Source: Opitutaceae bacterium (GTDB lineage Bacteria > Verrucomicrobiota > Verrucomicrobiia > Opitutales > Opitutaceae). Taken from it: a stretch of 50,484 nucleotides of DNA. How positions within the stretch are numbered: the stretch's first letter is position 1; each line of letters starts with the position of its first letter. The notes below the pieces were generated by a model. The model had not been told where the DNA came from and made no database searches. It saw only the letters and a list, made by a program, of their open reading frames with translations. Made by a program: the position numbers and the translations under genes. Below are positions 11,289-27,181 of the stretch, piece after piece. Location: assembly GCA_016794725.1 (NCBI GenBank), contig JAEUGZ010000564.1, positions 1 through 50,484 on the forward strand. Direction: 5' to 3'.

Positions 11289-11849
11289 ATGTCGCTCGAC
11301 TCGGCTCTCACCCACACGATCCAGACGCTCCAATCGCTGAACGCGATTCGATCGGAAATTCACCAGGCGTCCGAATTGATCCGAAGCACCCTGCAGGCAG
11401 GGGGCAAACTGCTGATTTGCGGAAATGGAGGCAGCGCCGCCGAAGCCCAGCACTTCTCCACCGAACTGGTCGGACGCTATTTCAAGAATCGTCGCTCCCT
11501 GCCTGCGGTCGCCCTCTCAGCCGATGGCTCGTTGCTCACCTGCATCGGCAATGACTATGGCTTTGACGCGGCCTTCTCGCGGCAGATCGAGGGCCTCGCG
11601 CGGCCCGGTGATGTCGTCGTCGTGTTCACTTCCAGCGGCAACTCCTCCAATATTCTGGCCGCACTCCACGAAGCCCGCCGGCAAGGGCTCTCCAGCATTG
11701 CGTTCCTGGGACGGGGTGGCGGCAAGGCCAAGGGCATTGCGACGGTCGACCTGATTGTCCCGGGTGACTCCGGCCGCTCCGCCCAGGAGGCCCATCTTTT
11801 TCTCATCCACCACTTCTGCGACATCATTGACTCCGACTGTACTCCGTGA
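11289..11849 (+). CDS. gmhA: D-sedoheptulose-7-phosphate isomerase (SIS domain)
   Basis: GGKLLICGNGGSAAEAQHFSTELVGRY, ALSADGSLLTCIGNDYGFD, SSGNSSNIL and QEAHLFLIHHFCD match GmhA. Confidence 0.8.
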   Translation: MSLDSALTHTIQTLQSLNAIRSEIHQASELIRSTLQAGGKLLICGNGGSAAEAQHFSTELVGRYFKNRRSLPAVALSADGSLLTCIGNDYGFDAAFSRQIEGLARPGDVVVVFTSSGNSSNILAALHEARRQGLSSIAFLGRGGGKAKGIATVDLIVPGDSGRSAQEAHLFLIHHFCDIIDSDCTP

Positions 11850-11914
11850 ACGGTCGGCAACGTCCCCACCCGCCCGTGTTCGATGACCTGCCGCAGCCTG
11901 TGGAGGGCCCCGCC

Positions 11915-12640: not shown

Positions 12641-12676
12641 AAAAAGGGGCACGTCGGCCGCGGCCAACCTGCCCCT
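12641..12676 (-). terminator. Rho-independent terminator closing the receptor/hydrolase operon
   Basis: On the minus strand a long GC hairpin (aggggca..ggccgcggcc..tgcccct) is followed by UUUUU (the complement of aaaaa at 12641-12645). It lies 30 nt after the stop at 12706. Confidence 0.55.
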
Positions 12677-12705
12677 CGTACTTGGAGGTGGATCGTCGCC
12701 GTGGT

Positions 12706-14142
12706 TTACTTGAACCAACGAACCACGCTGTAGGTGGCGGCCGCCAGCTGTTTGGGCAGCTCAACGTGGCCGTAGTGGGTCATAAGCGGATCCCATACCA
12801 TGAGCCGGACCTTGGCGTTCGGGTTCTTCTTTCGGTACTCATTCGCGAAAAACACCTCCACGGCCTTCATCGGGTCCTCCGGCACCCAATGGTTGCGGTC
12901 ATAATGACCCACCGTCCAGACCATCTGCTCGTATCCATCCATCCGGGTGTAATGGGTCGAGAACAGGTCAGCACTCACCTCCTCCATGTTCACTCCCCAT
13001 GGATTGCCGGACTTCGCGAGCAGGGTTTCGATGGAAACCTCGATCCAGCCCTTGAGCGAACTGTCGCCCCCGTGCTCAATGCTCTGGATCTGCTGCTTGA
13101 ACTGGGCCCGGCGACGTCCCTCTGCCTTGATCCACTTTTCGGCGATCTGGTACGTCGAATCGCCCGGCTCATACAGCGGATTGAGAAACCGGCTGTAGCC
13201 TCGCGCATAACCGGCCGCGTCCCGACGGGAAAGCTTGTGCAGCGGGGTTCGCTCCCGGGGCGTCGCCGGGGCGGAGGTACTGCCGTAGGAGGGACGCCGG
13301 CCTGCATCCTCGCTCGAGGAGACGCCCTCGCGCGCCTCGCGCACCTGATCGAGCCGGGCCGGTCCACCACTGCCCCAGCCCAGGTAGCGACCCTTGGTGC
13401 GTGCCCGAAGCTCGGGGTCGTTGTTCGCCAGCATCGCCATTTCTCCGGAGGTCGAGTGCCCGATCAACAGCAGGTCGCCCGTCGTGTTCTTCATCAGGAG
13501 CTGCTTCAGCCCCTTCATCACGTTCACATTGGTCAGGAGGCAGTTTCTCACTTCATATTCCTCCAACGACAGCGTCTTGTCCAACAAGTAGGCCGGTTGT
13601 CGCAGCTCGCTCTTGATCGGTTCATCCCAGCCGCCGTACTTGAAATTCCCGGGAATCGTGACGATCATCACATTGAGTTTCTGGGCAAGGAATTGCCCCC
13701 AGCCAGGACGGTTCTTCAGGTCGACATAGAACTCATACACATTCGCCGCCCCGCCGTTCATGATGACGAGCCAGGGGTACTTCTTTGCCTCGGGATCGTT
13801 GCTGGTCAGCCGCAGACCGGTGATGTCCCAATCCAAATTGTAGTGGCGGTACCGTTCCACGATCCAGTCGGCTTTGTAACCAAGCACCGAGGCCGGGACT
13901 TTGTCGAGCAGACGCGGATCAAAGGCGCCGCCGGGTGCCGCCAGGGCAAGATCGGTCACAGTCTTGCCACCATCCGGCAGATCCCAGCCAAGGGACATGA
14001 AAGAGGGGGTGTCGAGCGAAACATAAACCGCTTTTGGATCATCGAGCAGCGTCCAGATCTTCTTTTCCACTTCGTCACCCGCAAAGGCGTGAAGGGCAAA
14101 GAGACTGGCGGCGGCGCAGAGGGAGGAGAATTGAGCCTTCAT
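12706..14142 (-). CDS. Secreted alpha/beta-hydrolase-like Ser-hydrolase, paralog 1 (uncharacterised family)
   Basis: Signal peptide MKAQFSSLCAAASLFALHAFA, oxyanion-like VIMNGGAAN and nucleophile elbow LLLIGHSTSGE (Ser codon 13453-13455). It aligns end to end with the next two genes. Confidence 0.75.
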   Translation of the reverse strand: MKAQFSSLCAAASLFALHAFAGDEVEKKIWTLLDDPKAVYVSLDTPSFMSLGWDLPDGGKTVTDLALAAPGGAFDPRLLDKVPASVLGYKADWIVERYRHYNLDWDITGLRLTSNDPEAKKYPWLVIMNGGAANVYEFYVDLKNRPGWGQFLAQKLNVMIVTIPGNFKYGGWDEPIKSELRQPAYLLDKTLSLEEYEVRNCLLTNVNVMKGLKQLLMKNTTGDLLLIGHSTSGEMAMLANNDPELRARTKGRYLGWGSGGPARLDQVREAREGVSSSEDAGRRPSYGSTSAPATPRERTPLHKLSRRDAAGYARGYSRFLNPLYEPGDSTYQIAEKWIKAEGRRRAQFKQQIQSIEHGGDSSLKGWIEVSIETLLAKSGNPWGVNMEEVSADLFSTHYTRMDGYEQMVWTVGHYDRNHWVPEDPMKAVEVFFANEYRKKNPNAKVRLMVWDPLMTHYGHVELPKQLAAATYSVVRWFK

Positions 14143-14164
14143 AGGAGGGAGTCTGAAAGACGGG

Positions 14165-15613
14165 TTAGCTGTCCTGTTTCATCATCCAGTCGACGACGTG
14201 AATGAATGCGCCGGCAAGCTGCTCGGGCAGCTCAACGTGGGCGTAGTGGGTGACGTTGAGATCCCAGCCAATGACGCGGATCTTGGCCTTCGGATTGCGC
14301 AGGCGATATTCGGCGGCAATGCCGACATCACCGCCCTGCGCTGGATACAGTGCATTCCAGTGACCATCGAGTTTGCCCACGCACCAGACCATTGTACGGT
14401 ACCCGGTCGCCGGCGCATAACTCGTGGAATGGAGATCCTTCTGAACTTCCTCGAGATTCACTCCCCACGGATTTCCCGTCTTTGCCAGCGCCTTTTCAAT
14501 CGCCACCTCGATCTCACCTTTCATCGCAAAGTTGTCACTGTGCTCGAGGTCCTGCAGCGGTTGCTTGAAATTGGCGCGACGGCGTCCTTCGACCTGCAAC
14601 CACCGGGTCGCAATGTCCATGACCGACATGCCGGGCTCATAGAGTGGATTCAGCCACCGGCTGTAGACGCGACTATAGACCTGGGGCGTCCGACGGGCGA
14701 GATCGTTCAACCAGAAGTCTCCCGCCTTTTTCCAGTTGCGGGCACCACCCTCTTCGCCGCCACCACCGGTCAGACTCGGCGCGGCCTTGTACAACGGATC
14801 CGCTGCTTTCTTCGCGGCAATGACCGCTTTCACCCGCACGGGACCACCCGTTCCCCAACCGAGAAAGCGTCCCTTGAGTCGGGCTGTGAGCTCGGGATCA
14901 CGTTGCGCAAGACCGGGCAGCTCGCCGCCGGTCGAGTGACCGACGATGACCAGGTCGCCGGTGGTGTTCTTCACGATCAGCTGTTTCAACCCCTGATAGA
15001 TCACCTCGAAGGTGAAGACCGAGTTGTAAACCAGGACCTCGTCGGGATTCAGGTCACGATCGAGCAGAAACGCCGGGTCACGCTGATCGATCGGCTTTTC
15101 CCATCCACCATACTTGAAGTTTCCCGGTATGGAGACGATCAGCACGTTGAGTTTCTGGGCCAGGAACTGGCCCCAGCCGGGACGGTTCTTCAGGTCGATG
15201 TAGAACTCATAGATATTTGCCGCACCACCGTTCAGAATCACGACCCAGGGTTTGTCCTTCGCACCGGGATCCAGCGAGGTGAGTCGCAGGCCGCCGATAT
15301 CCCAGGGGAGATTGTAGCGAGTGAACCGCTCCACGATCCAATCGGCTTTGTAGCCGAGGGACTTTGGATCGAGTTTAGCAACGTCGCGGGGATCAAAGGC
15401 CCCTCCAGGTGCCTTGAGCGCCAGCTCGGTGACTTGTTTGCCACCATCCGGCAGCGCGACCTTCAAGGAGCGAAAGTCGGCTTCCGACAGCATGGTGAAC
15501 GGCTTCTCCTGGTCGAGGAGAGCGTGGATCGTGGCGCCCGCATCGGCCCGCAGTCCAGTGGCGCAGGCGAGCGAGACGGTGCACAGGGCAGCGGAAAAGA
15601 GTGTGTGTTTCAT
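14165..15613 (-). CDS. Secreted alpha/beta-hydrolase-like Ser-hydrolase, paralog 2
   Basis: Start taken at MKHTLFSAALCTVSLACA (ATG 15613), because the ORF-track extension to 15841 would overlap paralog 3. VILNGGAAN and VIVGHSTGGE (Ser codon 14933-14935). Confidence 0.75.
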   Translation of the reverse strand: MKHTLFSAALCTVSLACATGLRADAGATIHALLDQEKPFTMLSEADFRSLKVALPDGGKQVTELALKAPGGAFDPRDVAKLDPKSLGYKADWIVERFTRYNLPWDIGGLRLTSLDPGAKDKPWVVILNGGAANIYEFYIDLKNRPGWGQFLAQKLNVLIVSIPGNFKYGGWEKPIDQRDPAFLLDRDLNPDEVLVYNSVFTFEVIYQGLKQLIVKNTTGDLVIVGHSTGGELPGLAQRDPELTARLKGRFLGWGTGGPVRVKAVIAAKKAADPLYKAAPSLTGGGGEEGGARNWKKAGDFWLNDLARRTPQVYSRVYSRWLNPLYEPGMSVMDIATRWLQVEGRRRANFKQPLQDLEHSDNFAMKGEIEVAIEKALAKTGNPWGVNLEEVQKDLHSTSYAPATGYRTMVWCVGKLDGHWNALYPAQGGDVGIAAEYRLRNPKAKIRVIGWDLNVTHYAHVELPEQLAGAFIHVVDWMMKQDS

Positions 15614-15627
15614 GTTAAGGTTGAGGG

Positions 15628-17037
15628 CTACTTGAACCAGCGAACGACACCGTAGAACGCAGCGGCCAGTTCCTTGGGTTTCTCGACATGTCCATAGTGC
15701 GTCATGGGGACGTCCCACACGATGATCCGGACCTTGGCCTTCGGATTTTTCAGGCGAAGTTCCTTCGCGAGGAACACCTCCCAAGCCTTCATGGGATCTT
15801 CCGGTACCCAGTGGTTGCGATCGTAATGGGCAACGCACCACACGATCTGGTTGAACCCGTCCATGCGCGTGTAGGCAGTGCAGAACAGGTCCTTGCTCAC
15901 CTCATCCATGTCCACGCCCCAGGGATTGCCCGACTTGGCCAGGAGCACCTCGATCTGGCGCTCGACCTCGCCCTTCTTGCCCCAGGCGTTCGTGTGCTCG
16001 AGATCCTGCAGGGGCTGCTTGAACATGGGACGCCGAACTCCTTCCGCCTCCATCCACTTTTCCCCGATCTGCAGGTGTGACATGCCAGGCTCGTAGAGGG
16101 GATTGAGCCACCCGCTGTAGCCTCGCGCATAACCCTTGGCATCGCGGCGATTGAGGATGTGCAACGATTTCATCGCACCCATCGGTCCACCTTCACTGTC
16201 CTTCATCCCCGGCTCTTTCGCCTCCTGCAGGGCGTGGGCACGCGCCGGGCCACCACTGCCCCAACCTAGGAATCGGCCTTTCAAACGAGCGGCCAGGGTG
16301 GGATACTCATAGGAAAGGAATGCCAGTTCTCCTGACGTGGAATGGCCGATCATGAACAAGTCGCCCGTGGTGTGTTTGTTCACCAGCTGCTCCAGTCCCT
16401 TCATCACCAGTCGATTCGTGTAAATGGCATTGCGCACCTCCGATTCCATGATCGGAAGATCCCGGTCAAGCAGGTACGCGGGCTGTCGCGTCTCGTCCTT
16501 GATGGGCATGCTCCAGCCGCCATATTTGAAGTTTCCGGGAATTGAAACAATCAGTACGTTCAGCTTCTGGGCGAGAAACTGTCCCCAACCGGGCCGGCTT
16601 TTCAGGTCGACATAGAACTCGTACACGTTGGCCGCACCTCCGTTCATAATGACGAGCCAGGGGTACTTCTTGGCCTCGGGATCAAGCGACGTCAGCCGGA
16701 GCCCGGTGATGTCCCAATCCAGGTTGTAGTACTTGAAGCGCTCCACGCACCACTTCGCCTCATAGCCCAGGGTCGCGGCCGGGATCTTCTCCAGGTCGCG
16801 AGGATCAAACGCGCCCCCCTTGGCGGCAAGGGCGAGCGCAGTCACGGTTTTGCCGCCATCGGGCAGAACGAAGTCCTCACCCAAAGCGAGAAAGTCCTCA
16901 CCCGGGAGCGACGAATAGATTTTGTCCTGATCGAGCAGGGCGTGGATCTTTTTTTCCAGCGCGGCTGGACTGCCGTGCAGGAAGCCGCCGGCCAGAAGCC
17001 CCGCGGTCAGGGTGGAAACGAGATGGAGAAGTCGCAT
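15628..17037 (-). CDS. Secreted alpha/beta-hydrolase-like Ser-hydrolase, paralog 3
   Basis: Signal peptide MRLLHLVSTLTAGLLAGGFLHG, VIMNGGAAN and FMIGHSTSGE (Ser codon 16339-16341). Parts of its DNA are nearly identical to paralog 1, for example around 16585-16685 versus 13690-13790. Confidence 0.75.
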   Translation of the reverse strand: MRLLHLVSTLTAGLLAGGFLHGSPAALEKKIHALLDQDKIYSSLPGEDFLALGEDFVLPDGGKTVTALALAAKGGAFDPRDLEKIPAATLGYEAKWCVERFKYYNLDWDITGLRLTSLDPEAKKYPWLVIMNGGAANVYEFYVDLKSRPGWGQFLAQKLNVLIVSIPGNFKYGGWSMPIKDETRQPAYLLDRDLPIMESEVRNAIYTNRLVMKGLEQLVNKHTTGDLFMIGHSTSGELAFLSYEYPTLAARLKGRFLGWGSGGPARAHALQEAKEPGMKDSEGGPMGAMKSLHILNRRDAKGYARGYSGWLNPLYEPGMSHLQIGEKWMEAEGVRRPMFKQPLQDLEHTNAWGKKGEVERQIEVLLAKSGNPWGVDMDEVSKDLFCTAYTRMDGFNQIVWCVAHYDRNHWVPEDPMKAWEVFLAKELRLKNPKAKVRIIVWDVPMTHYGHVEKPKELAAAFYGVVRWFK

Positions 17038-17071
17038 GGGAAGTGTGAAGGAAGGAAGGAACGAGGGTCGG

Positions 17072-17089
17072 ACGCACCGCTCGGTGCGT
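17072..17089 (-). other. Intercistronic GC hairpin between the receptor and the first hydrolase gene
   Basis: acgcaccg/cggtgcgt form an 8-bp inverted repeat in the 63-nt spacer. There is no U-tract. Confidence 0.25.
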
Positions 17090-17100
17090 GTCCGGTGGAA

Positions 17101-19791
17101 CTAGAACGTGCGGGTAAAGGTGAATTGGAAGCGCCGCTCCGGATTCACGGTCACGAGCGTTTCGCTTCCGTCGCCGCCGCTCCGGGAGCGGAAACTAAGA
17201 TCGTCCGTGACATTGAAAACGTCCGCCTTCAGCCTCCACTGGCCGAAGTGATAGAAGGCGCCGACATTGATCGTGCGCGTCAGCGGGAGCTTCAAGAGCT
17301 GCCAGCGGCCGGAGTAGGTGCTGGAGAAGTAGTTTCCGCTCAGGGTGAAACCCAGTCCGTTCGACATCGTGTAGATGGAGCTGATGCCAAACTGGTTCTC
17401 CGGCACGCCTTGCTTTTCCGAATACATCGCCGCCACATCAGCCGGCACCGTCAGATTGAGCTTGCCGCCATAGCCAAACGCCTCGGCGGGGTAGATCACC
17501 TTTCCGGTGGCATCGACGACGTCCTTGAAACCAAGCCAGTCGGCGTTGATCCAGATGCTTCCGGTGCGAACCGGGTCATACTCGGTCTTCTGCGTCAGCG
17601 CATAGACCGACGCGGAAAAGGCCTTGGTCGGCACCCACTTGATCTCCATCTCGGTGCCGCGCGTCACCGTTGACGACACCTCGGCCGCCAGCAGGGACGA
17701 ATCCGAGTTCGGCGAAACGTCCGTGCGCGTCTGCTCGTAGGCGGCGACACTGACAAACACCTTGTTGTTGAGCAGGCTCGACTTGACTCCCGCCTCCAGG
17801 ATCTCACCCGCACCAATGTGTCCGGCCAGAATGACGGCGTTATCCATCTTGTTGTTGTTCGACTCAAGCATCAGGCTGGAGTGGGAGAACGTGAGGTAGG
17901 GAACGATCTTGAACGGCGCCTTGTAGCTGAGACTGGCGCTCCAAGAAGAGCCGTTGTCGTAGCCCTTGGCAAAGGAGTCACCGACCACGAAGCGCCCGGG
18001 ACTGGCGGACGTGCCCGCGTTGGGAGTGAAGCCGGCATAGTCGACGTTCTCCGCATAGGAGCGGTCACGCCTTCCACCAATCATGAGGTTGATCTTGCTG
18101 AAGAAATCCACATCCAGCATCGCGCCCACCCCTGCCTCCCAGTACACCGTGCGGTAACTGCTGGTGTAGGGAGCGCCGTCAGCGTTGATGTCGGGATTGT
18201 CGAAGGGGTGGGCGAAATTGACATTTGGAGTCAGGCCCGCACCCATCGCGTCAACCCGGTACCCACCGCCAAAGTCGCCGCCATAACGGAAACCGGTGGC
18301 GCGCGTGTGGCGGAAGTTCGCCGAGACCAGTGTATTGACCGCCATCCAGTCGGGCAGCTTGGAAAGCCGGTAGGTCAGGGTCGCCTTGTCCTCGTAGATA
18401 TAGACGTCCTGCTTGCCGCCGCTGGGCGTTCCGGAGACCTTGTTTTGATCCTGACTGTCGAAGAACATCTGGTTCTTGAACGTGAAGTCGGGATTGAAGT
18501 CGTAGAGCAAATCCAGGTACGCGACGATGAACTCGGCCTTCAAGTCGCGCTCATAGGCGCTCGGACGGCGGTAGTCGATCGTCGTGGTGCCGACCGTGCG
18601 CGGATCGAGCACGAAGCCGATCGGTAGCTGCAATGATGTCGGCAGCGGACCGCCGGCGCCCTGGGCGCGCAACAGGCCGGTTGGATCAGCGGCCGGATTG
18701 GCCACGAGGTAGTTGAACATGGTGACCGGAATGCCCGAGACCGTCGGGAACTTGCCGAGCGGATAGGCCTTGCCCGAGGAGTCACGCGGCCAACTGAACG
18801 TCTGGCTCAACGGGGCGTTGGCATTGCTCAGATTCCCGCGCACGGGCGAGGCCCTTTGATACTCATAGTAACCGATCGCGCCATTGTTGTTGGTATCGAG
18901 ATTGATGAGCGGCGACCCGGTGATGACCGTGCCGTTGTCAATCCAGTCCTGAGTGATGCGACCGGGGAACGCTCCCGCGGTCTGACTCAGCTGGTAGCTG
19001 AAACCGGTCTCCAGACGCAGCTTGCCCACCGCATCATCCAGGCTGATCGCTCCCTGGAGAATCTTCTGCTTGATCGGCACGTCCTGGATGTAGGCGTCCG
19101 AGTCCTCAAAGAGGCCGTAGACATAGTATCCACCCTTCTTCTTCCCGACCTTGAGCGGCCCCCCCACCCCGGCGGACGCCTCGAATTTCCCGTAGCTGCC
19201 GGTGGTCAGCTGGGTGACTCCCTCGCTGGAGGAGAGATAGCCACCCGTCTTCGCCCGACCTGCCTTGGGCACCATGTTCGTGTAGCCACCAATCTTGCCC
19301 ATGCCAAATATGGGCGACGGGGGACCCTTCACCACTTCGATCGAATCCATCGCGGCGAGCACGGATCGTCCATGCCCCTGCAGGTTCATTCGCTTCATGC
19401 CGCGGAAGTAGGTATCCCCCGGCACACTCCGGACGTCGATGCCACCCTGAATGCCAAACCGCGTGACCGTGAACACCCCGGGCACCACGCGCACCAAGTC
19501 CTCCACTGCCGAGAGCGACATCGCGTCAATCACCTCGGCACTCACCAGCGAGACCGAGCGAGGCGTCTCCAGAATTGATTTTTGAAATCCGAAGGCGCCC
19601 TCCACCGGTTTCTCCGGAAGCATGCCAAGGGGGTCCTCGACCACTTCCTCGACGATGAACTTGTTCAGGATGGTCACGGGCTCCTCCGCCGCGGCCTGAG
19701 CCTTGGCCTTCGAACTCACGCTCTGGGCAGAGGCGAGGAGTGTGCAGCAGGCGAAGGATGCGGCGCCTGCAATGTGCGCTAGGTTTCTCAT
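17101..19791 (-). CDS. TonB-dependent outer-membrane receptor with a FhuA/siderophore-receptor-like plug
   Basis: Start at MRNLAHIAGAASFACCTLLASAQS (ATG 19791). TonB-box-like VTILNKFIV. Plug blocks ETPRSVSLVS, DVRSVPGDTYFRGM and IEVVKGPPSPIFGMGKIGGYTNMVPK. C-terminal beta-strand ...FQFTFTRTF. Confidence 0.85.
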   Translation of the reverse strand: MRNLAHIAGAASFACCTLLASAQSVSSKAKAQAAAEEPVTILNKFIVEEVVEDPLGMLPEKPVEGAFGFQKSILETPRSVSLVSAEVIDAMSLSAVEDLVRVVPGVFTVTRFGIQGGIDVRSVPGDTYFRGMKRMNLQGHGRSVLAAMDSIEVVKGPPSPIFGMGKIGGYTNMVPKAGRAKTGGYLSSSEGVTQLTTGSYGKFEASAGVGGPLKVGKKKGGYYVYGLFEDSDAYIQDVPIKQKILQGAISLDDAVGKLRLETGFSYQLSQTAGAFPGRITQDWIDNGTVITGSPLINLDTNNNGAIGYYEYQRASPVRGNLSNANAPLSQTFSWPRDSSGKAYPLGKFPTVSGIPVTMFNYLVANPAADPTGLLRAQGAGGPLPTSLQLPIGFVLDPRTVGTTTIDYRRPSAYERDLKAEFIVAYLDLLYDFNPDFTFKNQMFFDSQDQNKVSGTPSGGKQDVYIYEDKATLTYRLSKLPDWMAVNTLVSANFRHTRATGFRYGGDFGGGYRVDAMGAGLTPNVNFAHPFDNPDINADGAPYTSSYRTVYWEAGVGAMLDVDFFSKINLMIGGRRDRSYAENVDYAGFTPNAGTSASPGRFVVGDSFAKGYDNGSSWSASLSYKAPFKIVPYLTFSHSSLMLESNNNKMDNAVILAGHIGAGEILEAGVKSSLLNNKVFVSVAAYEQTRTDVSPNSDSSLLAAEVSSTVTRGTEMEIKWVPTKAFSASVYALTQKTEYDPVRTGSIWINADWLGFKDVVDATGKVIYPAEAFGYGGKLNLTVPADVAAMYSEKQGVPENQFGISSIYTMSNGLGFTLSGNYFSSTYSGRWQLLKLPLTRTINVGAFYHFGQWRLKADVFNVTDDLSFRSRSGGDGSETLVTVNPERRFQFTFTRTF

Positions 19792-20216
19792 ATTGGGTGT
19801 GAAGGTCGATGCAGTTCGTTTGGTTCCAGTGTCAGCGCCAACAAGCACGGCACGTGCCCATTCATGATTTGAATACACAACCAGGCATGAATGTTTTTCC
19901 AGGCACCGGCCGCAACCGCCCCGGGGTTGCAGTTACAAATCAGATCCGTAGTTGATTGTTCACTTCACCGTTAATGTGTGACCACTGACCGACCCGACGC
20001 GATTCAACCGACGTCCGCGAACGCCTCGGCACACCTCCGGTTCGCGGCGTCCGTCGGATCCACCCTGCGGCAACCAGTCGGTGCTACACTTTCAACTACC
20101 GACGCTGGTAGACAGAGGGGCACGCCGGCGCCCGCACCGGGCCGGCGGCCCGGCGCGTCTCGTCCAGGGTCCGCTCCACCCCAATCCGGGACCGGAATGT
20201 CCCGGCGAGGGCGGAC

Positions 20217-22481
20217 TCACGCTGAGGGTGTTGGTTTGAGCTGGTTCAGTATCGATTCGGGAGTGAAGGGAATGCGACGGACTCGCACGCCCAGCGCGTC
20301 GTAGATTGCATTGCCGATCGAGGCGGCGATCGGCCGTGTCGCCGGCTCGCCCGCACCGGTGGAGGGTCGGTCGGGGCGGTTGTTGACGATCTCGATGTCA
20401 ATCGCCTGGGGAACCTCGGTCATGTCAAGAATGGGATAGCTCAGCCAGTCGGTGCTGGTCACCGCGGTGGAGGTGAAGGCCACCGCCTCGTGGAGCGCCC
20501 GGCTCAGCCCTTGGATCAGATTCGCCTCAATGGTCCCCTGCAGGCTGGCCGGATTGATGACGAAACCGCAGTCGTGGGCCACCACGAAGCGCTCCACCCG
20601 AACCCGGCCGGTGGTTGTGTCCACCGCCACCTCCGTCACGATCGCCACGGTCGTACCGTTGCGCGGCGCATAGGCAATACCGCGCCCGCGCCGGGTCGCA
20701 GCCGATCCCGGCGCGGGATTGGGCGAGGGACGTGACTCCCAGCCTGCCCGGCTGGCCGCCGCGTGAACGATGTCGCGGTCACGCTGATCCGACAGGTATT
20801 GGATGCGAAACTGCACGGGATCCATCCCGGCGGCGGCGGCCAGCTCATCCACAAAACACTCGCTGGCAAAACACGTCGCCATGCCATCGGGGTCGCGAAG
20901 GTGAGCCGTGCGCAGTCCGGTCGGAAGGGCGTGATCCCAGGGCAGGAGGTGGGACGTCAGTCGTTTCGCCGGAAACCGGTAGGTCTCGGTCGAAAACTGG
21001 AACCGGTCGGTGCTTTTGGCCTTCCATCCCCCGAGCATCTGCCCGAGAAGCGAATCCCCCGGCTCCTCGGTGCTGGAGGCGCGCAGACGACCTGAAAAGC
21101 CCCGCGCTTCATAGTCAAAGGCAGTCACCGCTCCCGTTGTACTCAGCCCACCGCGCATCGTCACCACCAAGGGAGGCCCCTTCGGATCCCACGCCGTTCC
21201 CTCCTCCCGGCTGTACTGCACCCGCACCGGCCGCCGCACGCGCGCCGAAAGGAACGCGGCATCCATGGCGGCATCGTCGGCGTCATTCATGCCATAGGAG
21301 CCGGGACCCGCCATCCACACCACCCGGACACGGCCAGGCTTCAGTCCGAGGAGTTTCGCGACCGCCCGACGCAGTGAATAGGGTTTCTGGCCTCCCATCC
21401 AGACTGTGGCGGAGTCCTCCTTCACCTCGGCAACCCCACAGCCGGGTCCCATGCAGGCATGGGACTGAAAAGGAAACTCGTACCGCGCCTGAAGGACCCG
21501 GGCCGACGCCTGCAAGCCTTCATCCACCGAGCCCACCGTATCCGCCGACTCCGACACACCCGGATTGCCCGCGGCCAGGTGGGTGTAGAGCTCACCGTAG
21601 GAGCCGGGGAACCGGGGGGCGGGCGTGCTCCAGCGCGGGACAAGGCTCCGCGCCGCCCGCACTGCCTGGAACTCCTGCTCGCAAACCACCGCGACGAAGT
21701 TTCCCTGTGTCACCACCTCAATCAATCCAGGTGACGAAAAGTCCGGCGGCACGCCGAGCAGCGTCGCCCCCGCCTGGGGCGGTCGAACGACGCGTGCATG
21801 CACCATCGCAGGGAGCACGAAGTCGACCAGGTACTCATAGCTGCCGTGCACCTTGGGGGGAATGTCGATGCGCGGTACCGGCTTGCCGACGTAGCGGTAG
21901 TGTTCCGGCGACTTCGTCTCAACCCCCTTGGGCAGGGCGAGTTCCAGCTTCCGGCCCTTCACCAGCTGGGCATAGGTTACGCCGACGCCAGGACGCAGCG
22001 TGGTGGTCACCACGCCCGCGTTCACGGCGAGTGCCTCCACACCCACGCCCAGCTGCTCCGCCGCCAGACCCAGTAGGTGGTGATGGGCGGCTGCGGCGGC
22101 CTTGCGCAGAGCCGACCCGCCCTCGACAATACCGTTGCTCGATCCGGTCCCGCGTTGATCCACCGTCGAGGCCGTGTCGCCCATGACCAGGACAACGCAT
22201 TCCATGTCGACCCTGAGTTCGTCCGCCACGATCTGCACAAACGCAGTACTGACACCCATGCCGGCTTCTATCTTCCCCACCGCCGCCACCACGCGTCCGT
22301 CATCGAGCAGCGCGAGCCAGGAATCGACGCGGTCAGCCGGAATGCTCTCCTTCCAGTCAGGGGTCACGGGAGCCTGCGCACGGAGCGACGGCGGCGCGGA
22401 GAAGAGCACGACCAGACCGCCGGCCACTCCAAGAAAGTCGCGGCGCGTCCAAAAACCGCCGGCCGGGGACGACGGGCTCAT
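20217..22481 (-). CDS. Molybdopterin-binding subunit of an IorB/aldehyde-oxidoreductase-like xanthine dehydrogenase-family enzyme, TAT-exported
   Basis: Twin-arginine signal MSPSSPAGGFWTRRDFLGVAGGLVVLFSAPPSLRA. The size (about 754 aa) and blocks (GKIEAGMGVSTA, GGQKPY, AGPGSYGMND, GAGEPA) fit the family. The ATG overlaps the upstream stop as ATGA (22478-22481). Confidence 0.85.
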   Translation of the reverse strand: MSPSSPAGGFWTRRDFLGVAGGLVVLFSAPPSLRAQAPVTPDWKESIPADRVDSWLALLDDGRVVAAVGKIEAGMGVSTAFVQIVADELRVDMECVVLVMGDTASTVDQRGTGSSNGIVEGGSALRKAAAAAHHHLLGLAAEQLGVGVEALAVNAGVVTTTLRPGVGVTYAQLVKGRKLELALPKGVETKSPEHYRYVGKPVPRIDIPPKVHGSYEYLVDFVLPAMVHARVVRPPQAGATLLGVPPDFSSPGLIEVVTQGNFVAVVCEQEFQAVRAARSLVPRWSTPAPRFPGSYGELYTHLAAGNPGVSESADTVGSVDEGLQASARVLQARYEFPFQSHACMGPGCGVAEVKEDSATVWMGGQKPYSLRRAVAKLLGLKPGRVRVVWMAGPGSYGMNDADDAAMDAAFLSARVRRPVRVQYSREEGTAWDPKGPPLVVTMRGGLSTTGAVTAFDYEARGFSGRLRASSTEEPGDSLLGQMLGGWKAKSTDRFQFSTETYRFPAKRLTSHLLPWDHALPTGLRTAHLRDPDGMATCFASECFVDELAAAAGMDPVQFRIQYLSDQRDRDIVHAAASRAGWESRPSPNPAPGSAATRRGRGIAYAPRNGTTVAIVTEVAVDTTTGRVRVERFVVAHDCGFVINPASLQGTIEANLIQGLSRALHEAVAFTSTAVTSTDWLSYPILDMTEVPQAIDIEIVNNRPDRPSTGAGEPATRPIAASIGNAIYDALGVRVRRIPFTPESILNQLKPTPSA

Positions 22482-22978
22482 TTCCTCACCTTCCGCCAGA
22501 GCACCGCAGCGCGTTTGACCGCGCGCAGAATGCTGACATGCGCACCACAACGGCACTTGAGGTCGGAGAGCGCCCCTCGGATGCGGGCGTCATCCGCCTC
22601 CGGATCGGCCTCAAGCAGCGCCACGGCCGTCATGATCCACCCATTGAGGCAATAGCCGCACTGCGCCGCCTGCTCGTCAATGAACGCCTGCTGCACCACG
22701 TGCCGGGCCTCCAGGGCCTGGGTCCGCGGTCCCCGTGAGGCCAGACCCTCCAGAGTCGTCACCTGAGTCGCGGCCGCGCCCTCGGCGGGCACGCTGCACG
22801 ACCGGGCCGCCACCCCGTTGATCAGGACGGTGCAGGCTCCGCACTGGCCGAGCCCGCAGCCAAAACGGGGGCCCTTGATTCCGAGTTGATTCCTGAGAAC
22901 GTAGAGCAGCGGCGTATCCGATTCGATCGGTACGGAGGTCGGTTTACCATTCAACTCAAAGGTGATGGTTGGTGTCAT
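22478..22978 (-). CDS. (2Fe-2S)-binding small subunit (IorA-like) of the molybdenum hydroxylase
   Basis: GCGLGQCGACTVLINGVAARSC and QCGYCLNG...CRCGAH are the two [2Fe-2S] motifs. It has no signal peptide of its own, so it may hitch-hike on the large subunit. Confidence 0.9.
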   Translation of the reverse strand: MTPTITFELNGKPTSVPIESDTPLLYVLRNQLGIKGPRFGCGLGQCGACTVLINGVAARSCSVPAEGAAATQVTTLEGLASRGPRTQALEARHVVQQAFIDEQAAQCGYCLNGWIMTAVALLEADPEADDARIRGALSDLKCRCGAHVSILRAVKRAAVLWRKVRK

Positions 22979-22981
22979 GGT

Positions 22982-25900
22982 TCAGGCGACCGCCGAGGGC
23001 AGCACGGGGGAATCCACCGGCTGGGGAGCCGCCACCTGCGTGCGGCGGGCACAGACGAGGAGGTACATGGAGGGAACCACATAGAGCGTGAGCACGCTGC
23101 CGACGATCAGTCCCCCGATCACCGCCAGACCCATCGAGACCCGGCTTTCGCTGCCCGCACCCAGGGCAAGCGCGATCGGCACCACACCGAGCACCGTGGC
23201 CACCGTGGTCATCAGAATCGGCCGCAGCCGCGTGTCCGCCGCCTGCAGCACCGCCTCGCGCGCCGCCACACCATCGCGAACCCGCTGCAGGGTGAACTCA
23301 ACGAGGAGGATGCCATTCTTGGTGATCAACCCCACCAGCATGATGATCCCAATCTGGCTAAAAATGTTCAGGGTCTGGTCAAAAAGTGCGAGCGTGCCGA
23401 GCGCGCCGACCAACGCGAGCGGGACGGTCAGCATGATCACAAACGGAGCACGCCAGCTTTCAAACTGGGCCGCCATCACCAGGTAAACAAACACCAGCGC
23501 GAGCGCAAAACCGACCAGCAGTCCTTTCTGACTCTCCGCATAGTCCGCCGCCGCGCCGGTCAACGCCGTATCCAGTTCCTTCGGCAGGTGATCCCGGGCC
23601 AGGGCCCGCATCGCGACAATTCCGTCCGCGATGGTTACCCCCGGGGCCAGGCGGGCCGATACGGTGGCCGCAATCTGCCGACCATAGCGATATCGCTGCG
23701 GCGGGGCCACCCGTTCCTTGACTGATATGAGGTTGTCCAGCGACACCAGTTTCCCCGGCGCCACCCGCACCGCCAGCCGGTTGATCGTGCTCGCGTCCAG
23801 CCTCATGTCGGCCGACAGCTGCTGCACCACCTCGTACTGGCGCCCGTTCCGGGTGTAGTAACCCACGCGCTGTCCGCTCAGCGCCGATTGCAGGGTCTGC
23901 GCCACGGTGACGGCCGAGACTCCCAGTGCCTGCAGTCGTTCCCGATCCAGCTCCACCTGCAACTCAGGTCGGGTGAACTTGAGGTCGACCTCACTCGAGG
24001 CAAACGAGGGAGCATCCTCCACCGCATTGAGAAACTTCGGCAACCCATCGATCAGGTCCTTCATATCGGGAGCGCCGACGACGAATTGAACCGAATCACC
24101 GCTCCGTCGGTCGCCAATGCTGGTCTCCTGGGAAATGCTCACCCGCGCCCCGGGGTGGTTGCGCACCAGGCGGGTGAGGCGCGCCGCGATCTCAGCCTGC
24201 GACACACCTCGGGACGCTTTCGACGACAATTGAAGCTCGATCACCCCGGTGTTGGCCACCCCGGTTCCACTCCGCGCCCCCGAGGCCGGAACCTGAAGCG
24301 TCATCAGAACCGCCTCCGGCACCGCAGCATCCACCGCAGCCGCCAGGTCGTTCATGTAGGAGAGCATGTAGTCGTAGGAGGCGCCCTCCGGACCCGTCGC
24401 CCGGACCGCCACCCGGCTCCGATCCTCAAGCGGCGACAGTTCGGAAGGCAGGCGGCCATGCAGCCACACCACTGCCGCAACGCAGCCGGCCAGCACGCCC
24501 AGGACCAGCACGCGCCATCCCAGCACCCGCTCCAGCGAGGATCGGTATCCTTTCCTGAGTGACGCGAGAAAGCGCTCCATCCCACCCAACCACCCCACCC
24601 TGCCGCCATGAATCCGAGCGCCCATCATGGGCGTCAGGGTAAGCGCCACAAACGCGGACAACCCCACCGCCGACGCAATGACCACGCCAAACTCACGAAA
24701 GAGCCGTCCCGTCAGTCCCTCCAGAAATACGATGGGGGAAAACACCACCACCAGCGCCAGCGTAGTTGCGATGACCGCCACATACACCTCTTTGGTTCCT
24801 TCAATGCCGGCATCGAGCGGCGACATGCCTTCCTCCTGCCGCCGGTGGATGTTTTCCACCACCACGATGGCATCGTCGACCACGAGTCCCACCGCCAGCA
24901 CCAGGCCAAGGAGGGTGAGGATGTTCAGGGAAAACCCCGCCGCCTGCATCACCAGGAACGTTCCGACCAGCGAAATCGGGATCGCCACCGCCGGGATGAG
25001 GGTGACGCGCCAGGAACCAAGAAATAGAAAGAGGACCACCACCACGAGGAGGAGCGCCAGACCGATCGTCTCGGCCAACTCGACCACCGCCTGGCGGACA
25101 AACTGGGTTGTATCCGTGGCGATTTCCACGGTGACATCGGCCGGCAGTGAAGCGCGGATGGCATCGAGACGGCGGTAGGTTTCGTCAGCGATCGTGATCT
25201 GATTCGCGCCCGGTTGCGGACGGACCGCGAGCCCGACCAGCGGGACTCCGCGCAAGGTGTAGGAGAGGCGTTCGTTCAGCGGGGCATACTCAGCCTGTCC
25301 GATCTCTTCAAACGGGATGCGCTGCTCCGCCTTGGTCAGCACTGCCATGCGATTGAACTCCTCCGGCGTGCGCAGCCGCCCTTGCGCCTGCAAGGTCAGC
25401 TCCGAGGCGCGATTTTCCACGCGTCCACCGGGTAGCTCCACGCTCTCGCGCTGCACCGCTTCCTTGACGTCAAGCGCGGTCAGTCCATGCGCCGCCATAC
25501 GATCGGGATCCAGCCAGAGTTTGATCGACTGGCGCTTCTCACCGAGGATGTCGACCCCGCCCACCTCGGGAATCGTCTGCAGGCGATCCTTAACCCGATC
25601 CGCCAGTTCGGTCAGTTCCATGAGGTCACGGCGGTCGCTCCGCACCACGAGGGTGAGCACTGGCGAGGAATCGGCGTCGGACTTGGAGATCGAGGGCGGA
25701 TCGACATCCCGGGGCAACAGTCGAATCGCGCGGCTAATCTGGTCCCGGACGTCATTGGCCGCCGCTTCCAGATCCGTCCCCAGTTCAAACTCGACCCGGA
25801 TGCGGCTCGCACCATCGCGGCTGACCGACGTCAGGGAACGGATGCCGGAGACCGTGTTCACCGCCTCCTCCAGGGGAACGGTGATCTGCGATTCAATGAC

Positions 25901-26071
25901 CTCGGCATTGGCCCCGGGGTAGTTCGCCACCACGGAGATCACCGGGGGATCGACCGCGGGATACTCCCTGACTCCGAGCCGGGAGAGCGCGATGGCTCCG
26001 GTGAGAAAGAGCACTCCGGAGAGCACCACCGTGAACACCGGACGCCTGACGCACAGCTCGTAGAGTCGCAT
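22982..26071 (-). CDS. RND efflux transporter permease (AcrB/HAE family)
   Basis: 1029 aa with 12-TM architecture. N-terminus CVRRPVFTVVLSGVLFLTGAIAL, LVVDDAIVVVENI and a duplicated half with GLITKNGILLVEF. Confidence 0.92.
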   Translation of the reverse strand: MRLYELCVRRPVFTVVLSGVLFLTGAIALSRLGVREYPAVDPPVISVVANYPGANAEVIESQITVPLEEAVNTVSGIRSLTSVSRDGASRIRVEFELGTDLEAAANDVRDQISRAIRLLPRDVDPPSISKSDADSSPVLTLVVRSDRRDLMELTELADRVKDRLQTIPEVGGVDILGEKRQSIKLWLDPDRMAAHGLTALDVKEAVQRESVELPGGRVENRASELTLQAQGRLRTPEEFNRMAVLTKAEQRIPFEEIGQAEYAPLNERLSYTLRGVPLVGLAVRPQPGANQITIADETYRRLDAIRASLPADVTVEIATDTTQFVRQAVVELAETIGLALLLVVVVLFLFLGSWRVTLIPAVAIPISLVGTFLVMQAAGFSLNILTLLGLVLAVGLVVDDAIVVVENIHRRQEEGMSPLDAGIEGTKEVYVAVIATTLALVVVFSPIVFLEGLTGRLFREFGVVIASAVGLSAFVALTLTPMMGARIHGGRVGWLGGMERFLASLRKGYRSSLERVLGWRVLVLGVLAGCVAAVVWLHGRLPSELSPLEDRSRVAVRATGPEGASYDYMLSYMNDLAAAVDAAVPEAVLMTLQVPASGARSGTGVANTGVIELQLSSKASRGVSQAEIAARLTRLVRNHPGARVSISQETSIGDRRSGDSVQFVVGAPDMKDLIDGLPKFLNAVEDAPSFASSEVDLKFTRPELQVELDRERLQALGVSAVTVAQTLQSALSGQRVGYYTRNGRQYEVVQQLSADMRLDASTINRLAVRVAPGKLVSLDNLISVKERVAPPQRYRYGRQIAATVSARLAPGVTIADGIVAMRALARDHLPKELDTALTGAAADYAESQKGLLVGFALALVFVYLVMAAQFESWRAPFVIMLTVPLALVGALGTLALFDQTLNIFSQIGIIMLVGLITKNGILLVEFTLQRVRDGVAAREAVLQAADTRLRPILMTTVATVLGVVPIALALGAGSESRVSMGLAVIGGLIVGSVLTLYVVPSMYLLVCARRTQVAAPQPVDSPVLPSAVA

Positions 26072-26073
26072 GG

Positions 26074-27153: not shown

Positions 27154-27181
27154 GACGAGTCCGCACACGGGATGCAGACAG

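What the first reader, a model, noticed from the sequence alone, without database searches (positions are those of the whole stretch)
12706..19791. Operon of a FhuA-like TonB-dependent receptor plus three tandem paralogs of an unplaced secreted Ser-hydrolase
Seen in the sequence: four co-directional minus-strand genes are separated by only 63, 14 and 22 nt and are closed by a hairpin+U5 terminator (12641-12676). The three 469-482 aa products align end to end. They share the blocks NGGAAN[VI]YEFY[VI]DLK[NS]RPGWGQFLAQKLNV, IPGNFKYGGW, GHST[SG]GE, WLNPLYEPG, NPWGVN[ML][ED]EV and THY[GA]HVE, and each has an N-terminal signal peptide. The hydrophobic-strand/GHSxG nucleophile elbow and the NGG oxyanion-like motif follow alpha/beta-hydrolase logic. 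About 200 residues of mostly helical sequence separate the Ser from the C-terminal His-containing block. I cannot assign them to any named esterase or lipase family. From established knowledge, the receptor plug (ETPRSVSLVS, VVKGPPSPIFGMGKIGGYTNMVPK) resembles FhuA/FhuE-type siderophore receptors. Inference: the receptor imports an ester-containing cargo, and the hydrolases then open or deacylate it in the periplasm. One candidate is a trilactone xenosiderophore, by analogy to the IroE/Cee/Fes logic. Another is an ester-decorated oligomer. Triplication with divergence suggests a substrate series. No inner-membrane transporter, TonB-ExbBD or reductase is encoded in this window.
Basis: partly seen in the sequence, partly recalled or inferred. 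Interest (0 to 1): 0.75.

Follow-up and report, generated by a model that had tools for sequence, protein, structure and literature searches.

The report
TonB receptor with three novel hydrolases
An Opitutaceae bacterium carries a conserved operon for an outer-membrane TonB-dependent importer followed by three diverged copies of an uncharacterised secreted alpha/beta-fold serine hydrolase; in related bacteria peptide-amidase-like enzymes take the same position, which points to an undescribed system for taking up and hydrolysing amide- or ester-linked compounds.

Summary
Four co-directional minus-strand genes (a TonB-dependent receptor, TBDR, and hydrolases H1-H3) are separated by 63, 14 and 22 nt and end in a strong hairpin+U5 terminator. 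H1-H3 are 55-67% identical. They have no Pfam, NCBIfam or PDB sequence match above threshold. A confident AlphaFold model is a canonical alpha/beta-hydrolase with a ~137-residue cap. Ser233, Asp406 and His447/His450 are invariant or nearly so in 73 homologues.

The window comes from an Opitutaceae metagenome-assembled genome. The TBDR-H1-H2-H3 order is kept in 11 of the 13 Opitutaceae loci fetched; the other two contigs end inside or just after the TBDR. New findings:
- A conserved sigma54-type -24/-12 promoter precedes the TBDR.
- The TBDR family (50-58% identical relatives in 75 metagenome loci) belongs to a recurrent modular system: ECF sigma/FecR/transducer or a sigma54 promoter, then a TBDR, then Pam-like amidases or H-family hydrolases, then MFP-RND, then a TonB2-like cluster.
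- H-linked and amidase-linked TBDRs interleave in the tree.
- Acidobacterial H genes sit with the same amidases.

The trilactone-xenosiderophore reading is neither excluded nor favoured. There is no Fur box, no iron gene and no Fes/IroE homology. The best reading is periplasmic hydrolysis of an imported amide/ester compound, possibly for nitrogen. This is a new hydrolase family in an undescribed variant of TBDR-coupled hydrolysis.

The parts
19844..19858 (-). sigma54-type -24/-12 promoter element GGCACGTGCCGTGCT (GG-N10-GC), about 55 nt upstream of the TBDR start codon
   Evidence: It is the only match in the 50-kb window. GGCA and TGCT are invariant in 10 orthologous upstream regions that are otherwise 47% identical. 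The motif lies upstream of 15 of 25 TBDR-family genes without ECF/FecR, against 2 of 37 with FecR. Background is 0.02 per segment.
19886..19898 (-). Second conserved upstream motif AAAAACATTCATG (consensus AAAAAnAATTCATG), about 28 nt upstream of the -24 element; function unknown
   Evidence: Invariant TTCAT and an A-rich run in the 10-sequence alignment.
17101..19791 (-). TonB-dependent receptor, 896 aa, with signal peptide, plug and a large barrel carrying long extra loops (about 270-410)
   Evidence: Pfam Plug 1.5e-9. AF2 model pLDDT 76.5. Foldseek top hits are FhuA, PiuA/D, Fiu, FoxA, FpvA and FhuE with TMt about 0.7. It scores far below all NCBIfam equivalog cut-offs.
15628..17037 (-). 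H1, secreted alpha/beta-hydrolase of an unplaced family (469 aa). Key residues: NGG132-134, GHSTSGE with Ser233, Asp406, His447/His450
14165..15613 (-). H2, the most divergent paralogue (482 aa, 55% identical to H1). Its clade is basal in the family tree
   Evidence: Abhydrolase_6 scores 20.6 bits, below threshold.
12706..14142 (-). H3, paralogue (478 aa, 67% identical to H1). Its clade lies next to the single-copy Acidobacteria/Proteobacteria clade
12641..12677 (-). Intrinsic terminator closing the operon (14-bp hairpin plus U5)
22982..27168 (-). Candidate associated module: MFP (26074-27168) and RND permease (22982-26071), co-directional and upstream of the operon
   Evidence: Pfam and NCBIfam. 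RND orthologues at about 51-55% identity lie next to TBDR-family genes in at least 13 other loci. Association is inferred, not shown.
20217..22978 (-). Candidate associated module: Fer2 small subunit (22478-22978) and a MoCo-binding large subunit with an RRDFLG twin-arginine (TAT) motif (20217-22556) of a likely periplasmic xanthine-dehydrogenase/aldehyde-oxidase-family enzyme
   Evidence: Homologues lie near H genes in Opitutaceae, Woeseiaceae, Micropepsaceae and Sphingomonas loci. The functional link is uncertain.

Best explanation
The locus is a sigma54-promoted operon for TonB-dependent uptake followed by hydrolysis in the periplasm (or at the cell surface). The 896-aa receptor imports a small, polar, amide- and/or ester-linked organic compound, for example a peptide-like or depsipeptide-like natural product. 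The three secreted paralogues H1-H3 then cleave it. They belong to a previously unplaced alpha/beta-hydrolase family with a Ser233-Asp406-His447/450 triad, an NGG oxyanion loop and a conserved basic cap. In sister modules the same job is done by Pam-like amidase-signature enzymes. The purpose is most likely nutrient scavenging, with nitrogen the leading candidate.

Shown: gene order, operon structure, fold, conservation of catalytic residues, conserved promoter motif, recurrent synteny with amidases, RND and TonB2.
Inferred: localisation, catalytic activity, substrate class, sigma54 dependence in vivo and the physiological role.
For: - Operon anatomy.
- H1 model: pLDDT 87, pTM 0.89, with the canonical b1-b8 order. 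Ser follows b5, Asp follows b7, His follows b8, and the cap lies between b6 and b7.
- Foldseek returns only alpha/beta hydrolases.
- S233, D406 and H450 are invariant and H447 is present in 72 of 73 homologues from five phyla; 92 columns are at least 97% conserved.
- Some family members pass the Abhydrolase_6 gathering score.
- TBDR+H synteny is kept in 11 Opitutaceae loci and in L077 and L146, which carry ECF/FecR and/or TonB2 clusters.
- In most TBDR-family loci the position after the TBDR is held by 1-3 amidases. The 538-aa type matches peptide amidase Pam at 1e-68.
- H-linked and amidase-linked TBDRs interleave in the tree.
- In Acidobacteria, H sits co-directionally with AmiL (58-64% identical) and AmiS behind an unrelated TBDR type.
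- Amidohydro_3/1 genes lie near H in 17 of 53 other loci. Asparaginase-domain genes recur in TBDR loci.
- The sigma54 motif is conserved and strongly enriched.
Against: - No biochemical data exist for any family member, and the substrate is unknown.
- Most single-copy H genes outside Opitutaceae have no TBDR within 10 kb, so coupling to a TBDR is not universal.
- The closest solved folds to the TBDR are all siderophore receptors, and its relatives use Fec-type cell-surface signalling. Both features are typical of iron-carrier systems.
- Sigma54 does not by itself imply nitrogen control, and no enhancer-binding protein is encoded nearby.
- The NJ trees have no support values.
Confidence: 0.55

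Rival explanations
1. Xenosiderophore piracy. The TBDR imports a ferric complex of an ester- or amide-backbone siderophore, such as a trilactone catecholate, fusarinine-type ester hydroxamate or peptide siderophore. H1-H3 (amidases in sister modules) open the scaffold in the periplasm to release iron. The RND pump expels the fragments.
For: - The closest solved folds are FhuA, PiuA/D, Fiu, FemA, FoxA, FpvA and FhuE, and the plug-level sequence hits are to siderophore receptors.
- Relatives sit behind ECF sigma/FecR/STN-transducer triads with TonB2-like clusters. This is the classic architecture of xenosiderophore systems.
- RND adjacency would fit export of used chelator.
- There is precedent in PfeA-PfeE in Pseudomonas aeruginosa (PMC8001512, found).
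Against: - There is no Fur box; the best match of 10/19 equals background. The caveat is that the Fur motif of Verrucomicrobia is unknown.
- A sigma54-type promoter is present instead.
- No reductase, PepSY/FoxB, binding protein or iron ABC genes appear in the window or among the recurrent neighbours.
- H shows no similarity to the Fes/IroE/PfeE family.
- Up to three amidases plus asparaginase-like genes per module is unusual for iron release.
- The PDB set of TBDTs is dominated by siderophore receptors, so the fold ranking is biased.
Confidence: 0.2
2. Detoxification or interference. The module takes up and destroys an antibiotic or signal with a labile ester or amide bond (cyclic depsipeptide, lipopeptide or lactone), and the RND pump provides efflux protection.
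For: - The RND-MFP pair recurs with the TBDR family.
- The closest generic structural hit is a macrolactone esterase, brefeldin A esterase.
- NHL/lactonase-like and metallo-beta-lactamase-fold neighbours occur in some loci.
Against: Active TonB-dependent import of a toxin in order to destroy it is uneconomical. The dedicated TonB2 motor and cell-surface signalling fit nutrient acquisition better. The structural hits are weak (TMq 0.3-0.4).
Confidence: 0.1
3. Generic secreted lipase, polyester depolymerase or carbohydrate esterase of a polysaccharide-utilisation-type locus.
For: There are weak Lipase_3 and Abhydrolase_6 hits. Foldseek hits include gastric and lysosomal lipases and ABHD6. Opitutaceae are known polysaccharide degraders (background knowledge).
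Against: - No glycoside hydrolase, SusD, CBM or sulfatase genes lie in the window near the operon or among the recurrent neighbours.
- The TBDR is not SusC-like.
- Conservation is extreme (44-65% identity across phyla) and the cap is polar and basic. This argues for a specific small polar substrate rather than lipid or polymer.
Confidence: 0.08
4. The three proteins are non-catalytic binding proteins (pseudo-enzymes) that hand cargo on from the TBDR.
For: None is specific. Their periplasmic location and tandem copies would be compatible.
Against: The nucleophile elbow, Asp, His and oxyanion-loop glycines are conserved in all 73 sequences and in all three paralogue clades.
Confidence: 0.02

Closest known systems
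PfeA-PfeE (Pseudomonas aeruginosa), IroN-IroE (Salmonella/E. coli), CfrA-Cee (Campylobacter): a TBDR plus a periplasmic trilactone esterase
   Same: The logic is the same: a TonB-dependent outer-membrane importer is genetically coupled to a periplasmic alpha/beta-fold serine hydrolase that cleaves the imported molecule.
   Different: H1-H3 show no detectable sequence relation to the Fes/IroE/PfeE esterase family (no PF00756 hit). They are about 470 aa with a large cap, are triplicated, sit behind a sigma54-type promoter and show no sign of iron regulation.
Peptide amidase Pam of Stenotrophomonas maltophilia (PDB 1M21/1M22, 5AC3), amidase-signature family
   Same: Pam-like secreted amidases occupy the same position after TBDRs of this family, and they co-occur with H genes in Acidobacteria. 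A related substrate class is therefore inferred.
   Different: The fold and catalytic machinery are unrelated: Ser-cisSer-Lys in Pam against the Ser-Asp-His alpha/beta hydrolase in H. H is not a member of that family.
Hormone-sensitive-lipase family / family IV esterases (e.g. brefeldin A esterase 1JKM)
   Same: This is the top Foldseek hit. A Gly-Gly oxyanion loop follows b3 (NGG here; HGG in 4 of 73 family members and in the remote Woeseiaceae paralogue).
   Different: TMq is only 0.31 and identity 16%. There is no Abhydrolase_3 hit. The elbow is GHSTSG, not GDSAG/GTSAG. H has an extra N-terminal region and a larger cap.
FhuA/FoxA/FpvA/PiuA-type siderophore TonB-dependent transporters
   Same: Both have a plug plus 22-strand-barrel fold, and these are the closest solved structures. 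Relatives of the window TBDR carry STN domains and ECF/FecR partners, as FpvA, FoxA and FecA do.
   Different: Identity is 12-15%. The window TBDR is about 200 residues longer. It scores far below all equivalog cut-offs and has no TIGR01783 hit. The window copy has no STN domain, and its substrate is unknown.
Vibrio-type TonB2 cluster (TtpB/DUF3450-TtpC-ExbB-ExbD-TonB2-TtpD)
   Same: The same gene set (DUF3450, large MotA/ExbB, ExbB, ExbD, ExbD, TonB, TPR) follows the TBDR-hydrolase unit in many relatives.
   Different: It is absent from this window. The equivalence to Vibrio TonB2 rests on domain order as recalled from memory and was not tested.

Membership tests
alpha/beta-hydrolase superfamily (Pfam clan CL0028) | Eight-stranded mostly parallel sheet with canonical strand order | tested here: met
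   The AF2 model (pLDDT 87) has b1 92-103, b2 106-117, b3 127-132, b4 161-165, b5 227-232, b6 255-259, b7 397-403 and b8 435-442. There are 436 Foldseek hits at E<=1e-3, and all 50 listed are alpha/beta hydrolases.
alpha/beta-hydrolase superfamily (Pfam clan CL0028) | Nucleophile elbow Sm-X-Nu-X-Sm-Sm after b5, acid after b7, His after b8 | tested here: met
   G231-H-S233-T-S-G236, D406 and H447/H450 lie at the expected topological positions. S233, D406 and H450 are present in 73 of 73 sequences and H447 in 72 of 73.
alpha/beta-hydrolase superfamily (Pfam clan CL0028) | Triad geometry (Ser-His and His-Asp hydrogen-bond distances) | not testable with these tools
   Model coordinates are not exposed. 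Only secondary structure and pLDDT were returned.
alpha/beta-hydrolase superfamily (Pfam clan CL0028) | Significant match to a clan HMM | tested here: inconclusive
   The window proteins are below threshold (H2 Abhydrolase_6 20.6 bits against GA 26.3; H1 no hit). Family members P0128, P0125 and P0234 exceed GA at 27-32 bits.
Fes/IroE/PfeE/Cee siderophore esterases (Pfam Esterase PF00756) | Sequence membership in PF00756 | tested here: not met
   No PF00756 hit at E<=1 for H1-H3.
Fes/IroE/PfeE/Cee siderophore esterases (Pfam Esterase PF00756) | Iron (Fur) regulation and linkage to iron-uptake genes | tested here: not met
   The best Fur-box match is 10/19, which equals background. There are no iron genes in the window. 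Caveat: the E. coli Fur consensus was used.
Hormone-sensitive-lipase family (Abhydrolase_3, family IV esterases) | HGG(G) oxyanion motif, GDSAG/GTSAG elbow and a PF07859 match | tested here: not met
   The window proteins have NGG and GHSTSG, with no PF07859 hit. Only 4 of 73 homologues have HGG.
FhuA / ferrioxamine / TIGR01783 TonB-dependent siderophore receptors | Score above the curated family cut-off | tested here: not met
   PRK14049 scores 46.6 bits against 904; FhuA PRK10044 scores 39.7 against 803; TIGR01783 is not listed at E<=1.
FhuA / ferrioxamine / TIGR01783 TonB-dependent siderophore receptors | Plug plus 22-strand barrel closest to siderophore TBDTs | tested here: met
   Pfam Plug. 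The Foldseek top 30 are all siderophore TBDTs, with TMt 0.60-0.74. The PDB is biased towards this class.
FhuA / ferrioxamine / TIGR01783 TonB-dependent siderophore receptors | Transport of a ferric siderophore | not testable with these tools
   This needs uptake assays.
sigma54 (RpoN)-dependent promoters | GG-N10-GC with a TGGCAC-N5-TTGCW-like sequence at a suitable distance from the start codon | tested here: met
   GGCACGTGCCGTGCT lies at 19844-19858, about 55 nt upstream of the ATG.
sigma54 (RpoN)-dependent promoters | Conservation in orthologous promoters beyond background | tested here: met
   The motif is present in 10 of 10 Opitutaceae upstream regions. It is present upstream of 15 of 25 TBDR-family genes not preceded by ECF/FecR, against 2 of 37 that are. 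The expected number is 0.02 per segment.
sigma54 (RpoN)-dependent promoters | Cognate enhancer-binding protein and RpoN-dependent transcription start | not testable with these tools
   No Sigma54_activat protein was found among the window ORFs scanned, and not all ORFs were scanned. This needs 5'RACE and genetics.
Fec-type cell-surface signalling (ECF sigma / FecR / STN-TBDT) | STN domain on the TBDR and adjacent ECF sigma and FecR genes | tested here: not met
   The window TBDR has only a Plug domain. There are no ECF/FecR homologues in the window. They are present in many relatives.

The most novel reading that the evidence does not exclude
The H proteins define a new, tightly conserved alpha/beta-hydrolase family. 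Together with this roughly 900-aa TBDR family, they belong to an undescribed and widespread system found in Verrucomicrobiota, Acidobacteriota, Proteobacteria and Gemmatimonadota from soil and fresh water. The system is a TonB-dependent uptake-and-hydrolysis unit for an amide- or ester-linked natural compound. It is controlled either by sigma54 or by an ECF/FecR/transducer cascade. It has its own TonB2-like motor and an RND pump that may return or expel a hydrolysis product. Amidase-signature enzymes and H-family hydrolases act as interchangeable catalytic cassettes.
Probability: 0.45. Interest if true: 0.7.

Novelty: new variant of a known kind. Interest (0 to 1): 0.6.

Why it matters
TonB-dependent transporters in environmental bacteria are abundant, but most have no known substrate outside iron carriers and glycans. 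This analysis links one large TBDR family to a fixed set of secreted amide and ester hydrolases, to an RND pump, to a dedicated TonB motor and to two alternative regulatory inputs. That gives a concrete and testable handle on a possibly major route of organic-nitrogen (or xenosiderophore) acquisition in soil and freshwater Verrucomicrobia, Acidobacteria and Proteobacteria. It also flags an alpha/beta-hydrolase family with no Pfam, NCBIfam or PDB representative whose extreme conservation suggests a specific, still unknown substrate. A cultured host is available for experiments: Lacunisphaera limnophila, genes Verru16b_02801 and Verru16b_02803 (named) plus the paralogue between them.

Tried and rejected
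- Pfam, NCBIfam and PDB-sequence searches of H1-H3 gave only sub-threshold or spurious hits: Lipase_3, Strep_his_triad, 4-oxalocrotonate tautomerase, QmcA.
- The Fur-box search gave nothing within 3 mismatches, and the best match of 10/19 equals background.
- The recent-HGT idea based on low GC is rejected. GC3 of the operon genes (0.72-0.81) equals that of the rest of the window; the lower GC lies in codon positions 1 and 2.
- TetR (11846-12628) as the operon regulator is rejected. It is adjacent only in the same species (L007) and absent from the other Opitutaceae loci.
- The simple sigma70 promoter scan found nothing upstream of the TBDR.
- Rfam and tRNA scans of the window were empty.
- Four literature searches for a described TBDR-amidase/hydrolase system or for Lacunisphaera data found nothing pertinent. 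The bile-salt amidase preprint describes a different, MFS-linked cluster.
- The sigma54 motif is not found directly upstream of H genes outside the TBDR operons (0 of 63).
- De novo clustering of TBDR-locus genes found no conserved importer, binding protein or reductase.
- Triad distances in the model could not be measured because coordinates are not exposed.

Full report
**Observation.** ORF listing confirms four co-directional minus-strand genes:
- TBDR at 17101-19791, 896 aa from the ATG that is conserved in orthologues. The longest ORF would start at 19878, inside the promoter.
- H1 at 15628-17037 (469 aa).
- H2 at 14165-15613 (482 aa).
- H3 at 12706-14142 (478 aa).

The spacers are 63, 14 and 22 nt. 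The operon ends in a 14-bp hairpin followed by U5 at 12641-12677, dG -28.3 kcal/mol. The total GC of the operon is 5-8 points below the flanks. GC3 (0.72-0.81) is the same as in the other genes, so the dip reflects amino-acid composition and not recent transfer.

**What the hydrolases are.** None of H1-H3 reaches a curated threshold in Pfam or NCBIfam. A family profile finds nothing real among PDB sequences. An AlphaFold2 model of H1 built on 30 homologues is confident (pLDDT 87.4, pTM 0.89). It shows the canonical alpha/beta-hydrolase sheet:
- Ser233 sits in the GHSTSG elbow after b5.
- Asp406 follows b7.
- His447/His450 follow b8.
- The NGG132-134 loop follows b3.
- A mostly helical cap of about 137 residues lies between b6 and b7.

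Foldseek against the PDB returns hundreds of alpha/beta hydrolases but none close (TMq 0.3-0.4, 10-16% identity). The top hits are brefeldin A esterase, lysosomal and gastric lipases, curacin TE, ABHD6 and epoxide hydrolases.

In 73 full-length homologues, S233, D406 and H450 are invariant and H447 is present in 72 of 73. Ninety-two columns are at least 97% conserved. These include a basic, aromatic-rich cap segment: R298, Y303, Y307, R335, R336, K340, Q341, E347 and H348. A few members pass the Abhydrolase_6 gathering score.

The family is small and isolated. Only 202 clusters at 50% identity match in 1.84 billion representatives, and most of those are fragments. Yet it spans Verrucomicrobiota, Acidobacteriota, Alpha-, Beta- and Gammaproteobacteria and Gemmatimonadota at 44-65% identity. 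This is a real but uncharacterised alpha/beta-hydrolase family.

**Origin and conservation of the operon.** The window is 99% identical to a contig of the Opitutaceae MAG STL-VER4. TBDR-H1-H2-H3 in this order is kept in 11 of the 13 Opitutaceae loci fetched, including cultured Lacunisphaera limnophila. L078 and L081 are cut within H3 and H1. In the other two loci, L082 and L085, the contig ends inside the TBDR. Each paralogue forms its own clade, so the triplication predates these genera. An NJ tree without support values places the H2 clade basal and the single-copy Acidobacteria/Proteobacteria clade next to H3. Across the three clades 183 columns are identical and 37 are clade-specific. All clades keep the catalytic residues. 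This fits three active enzymes with modest specialisation.

**Promoter.** Aligning ten orthologous upstream regions (47% mean identity) reveals two conserved islands: AAAAAnAATTCATG and GGCA[CT]-N6-TGCT. The second has the GG-N10-GC spacing and sequence of a sigma54 -24/-12 promoter. It lies at 19844-19858, about 55 nt upstream of the ATG, and is the only match in the window.

Across the TBDR-family loci the motif distribution is as follows:

| TBDR context | Loci with motif |
|---|---|
| No ECF/FecR gene upstream | 15 of 25 |
| FecR upstream | 2 of 37 |
| Second TBDR in a tandem | 0 of 17 |

The background expectation is 0.02 per segment. No Fur box is present; the best match of 10/19 is at background level. 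No Rfam element was found.

**The wider system.** The TBDR has only a Pfam Plug hit. It scores 40-47 bits against FhuA/ferrioxamine equivalog models whose cut-offs are above 800. PDB sequence similarity is confined to the plug. Its AF2 model (pLDDT 76.5) is closest to FhuA, PiuA/D, Fiu, FemA, FoxA, FpvA and FhuE at TMt about 0.7. The "FhuA-like" label therefore holds at fold level only.

Relatives at 50-58% identity are numerous. Three genomic look-ups and 75 metagenome loci show a recurrent modular arrangement, in this order:
1. ECF sigma, FecR and a transducer-size TBDR of about 980-1000 aa next to FecR; only about a fifth of the relatives listed carry a recorded STN hit.
2. A TBDR of about 900 aa.
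3. One to three amidase-signature enzymes, or H-family hydrolases.
4. MFP-RND.
5. DUF3450-ExbB-ExbB-ExbD-ExbD-TonB-TPR.

Further points on this system:
- The 538-aa amidase type matches Stenotrophomonas peptide amidase Pam at 1e-68.
- H replaces the amidase directly after the TBDR in L077 (55% to H1) and L146 (63%), outside the Opitutaceae clade.
- In the TBDR tree, H-linked and amidase-linked receptors interleave.
- A close relative of the window (L080, TBDR 93% identical) carries a second TBDR plus two amidases directly after H3.
- RND orthologues about 51-55% identical to the window's RND (22982-26071) accompany the TBDR family in at least 13 loci.
- De novo clustering found no conserved importer, binding protein or reductase.
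- Asparaginase-domain proteins also recur in these loci.

**H genes outside this TBDR family.** In 53 loci of at least 8 kb, the recurrent neighbours are:
- secreted Amidohydro_3/1 enzymes, in 17 loci;
- AmiS/AmiL amidases, in about 11 loci;
- an Acidobacteria-type TBDR, in 8 loci;
- an unknown family of about 290 aa, in 14 loci;
- a MoCo oxidoreductase, in 5 loci.

In Edaphobacter and other Acidobacteria (L026, L037, L055) a different TBDR type, AmiL (58-64% identical to the AmiL of the modules above), AmiS and H are co-directional. The link between H and these amidases is therefore independent of the TBDR family.

**Interpretation.** The best-supported mechanism is TonB-dependent import of a small polar compound with amide and/or ester bonds, followed by hydrolysis by H1-H3. 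Transcription comes from a sigma54-type promoter. Nitrogen scavenging is the leading guess, for two reasons: the partners are amide hydrolases, and there is a sigma54-type promoter.

The xenosiderophore reading stays alive. The closest folds are siderophore TBDTs, relatives use Fec-type signalling, and an RND pump could expel used chelator, by analogy with PfeA-PfeE (PMC8001512). It lacks positive support, however: there is no Fur box, no iron gene and no Fes/IroE homology. Its trilactone form in particular has no evidence. The lipase/polymer, detoxification and pseudo-enzyme readings are less likely, as set out under the rival explanations.

**Novelty.** No paper describing this system or family was found. 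The logic of a TBDR coupled to a periplasmic hydrolase is known. The hydrolase family, the cassette exchange with amidases, the dual sigma54/ECF control and the companion RND pump appear undescribed. I rate this a new variant of a known kind, with interest 0.6.

**Limits.**
- Triad geometry was not measured.
- Localisation was read from the sequence only.
- The trees are NJ without support values.
- My gene calls in the fetched loci are heuristic.
- The sigma54 assignment rests on motif and conservation only.

Noticed in passing
window 22982-27168 (-): An MFP-RND efflux pair lies co-directionally upstream of the operon. RND orthologues (about 51-55% identical) sit beside TBDRs of this family in at least 13 unrelated loci. 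No outer-membrane factor or importer is conserved with them.
   Followed up: partly
window 20217-22978 (-): A two-subunit molybdenum oxidoreductase of the xanthine-dehydrogenase/aldehyde-oxidase family. The large subunit has a twin-arginine leader (RRDFLG). Its likely ATG at about 22481 overlaps the Fer2 stop. Homologues lie near H genes in Woeseiaceae, Micropepsaceae and Sphingomonas loci.
   Followed up: partly
L057, L059, L063-L067 (e.g. L066:9727-11190, minus strand): In these gammaproteobacterial (mostly Woeseiaceae) loci a 230-590 aa protein (~490 aa where complete) with no Pfam hit lies divergently next to the H gene. It aligns weakly to the H profile (25% over 314 columns) and shares the HGG, GHSTGG and RPQFK motifs. 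It is probably a remote paralogous family.
   Followed up: partly
L041:8023-8910 (-) and 13 other H loci: A secreted protein of about 290-330 aa with no Pfam match recurs near H genes, in 14 of 53 loci.
   Followed up: no
H1 residues 232, 348, 409, 447, 450 (window 15628-17037): Five histidines are invariant or nearly invariant in the family, including an H447-x-x-H450-x-E452 motif. It is unclear which histidine is catalytic and whether a metal site exists.
   Followed up: no
L080:16828-21977; L088:289-5708: In close relatives a second sigma54-preceded TBDR plus Pam-like amidases lies directly after H3 (L080), or directly after the RecF-SIS genes (L088). The window has TetR and the convergent H operon at the corresponding place. 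The locus looks like a hotspot for exchange of TBDR-hydrolase modules.
   Followed up: partly
window 11846-12628 (+): A TetR-family regulator is convergent with H3 and shares the terminator region. It is present only in the same species (L007), so it is probably not the operon's conserved regulator.
   Followed up: yes
window 41494-47581 (-): A second, unrelated TBDR (1074 aa, Plug plus barrel Pfam hits) lies upstream of, and co-directional with, xylose-isomerase-like TIM-barrel and GFO/IDH/MocA oxidoreductase genes. This looks like a separate sugar-type uptake cluster.
   Followed up: no
window 19886-19898 (-): A conserved AAAAAnAATTCATG motif lies about 28 nt upstream of the sigma54 -24 element in all Opitutaceae orthologues. 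It may be a regulator or IHF-type site.
   Followed up: no
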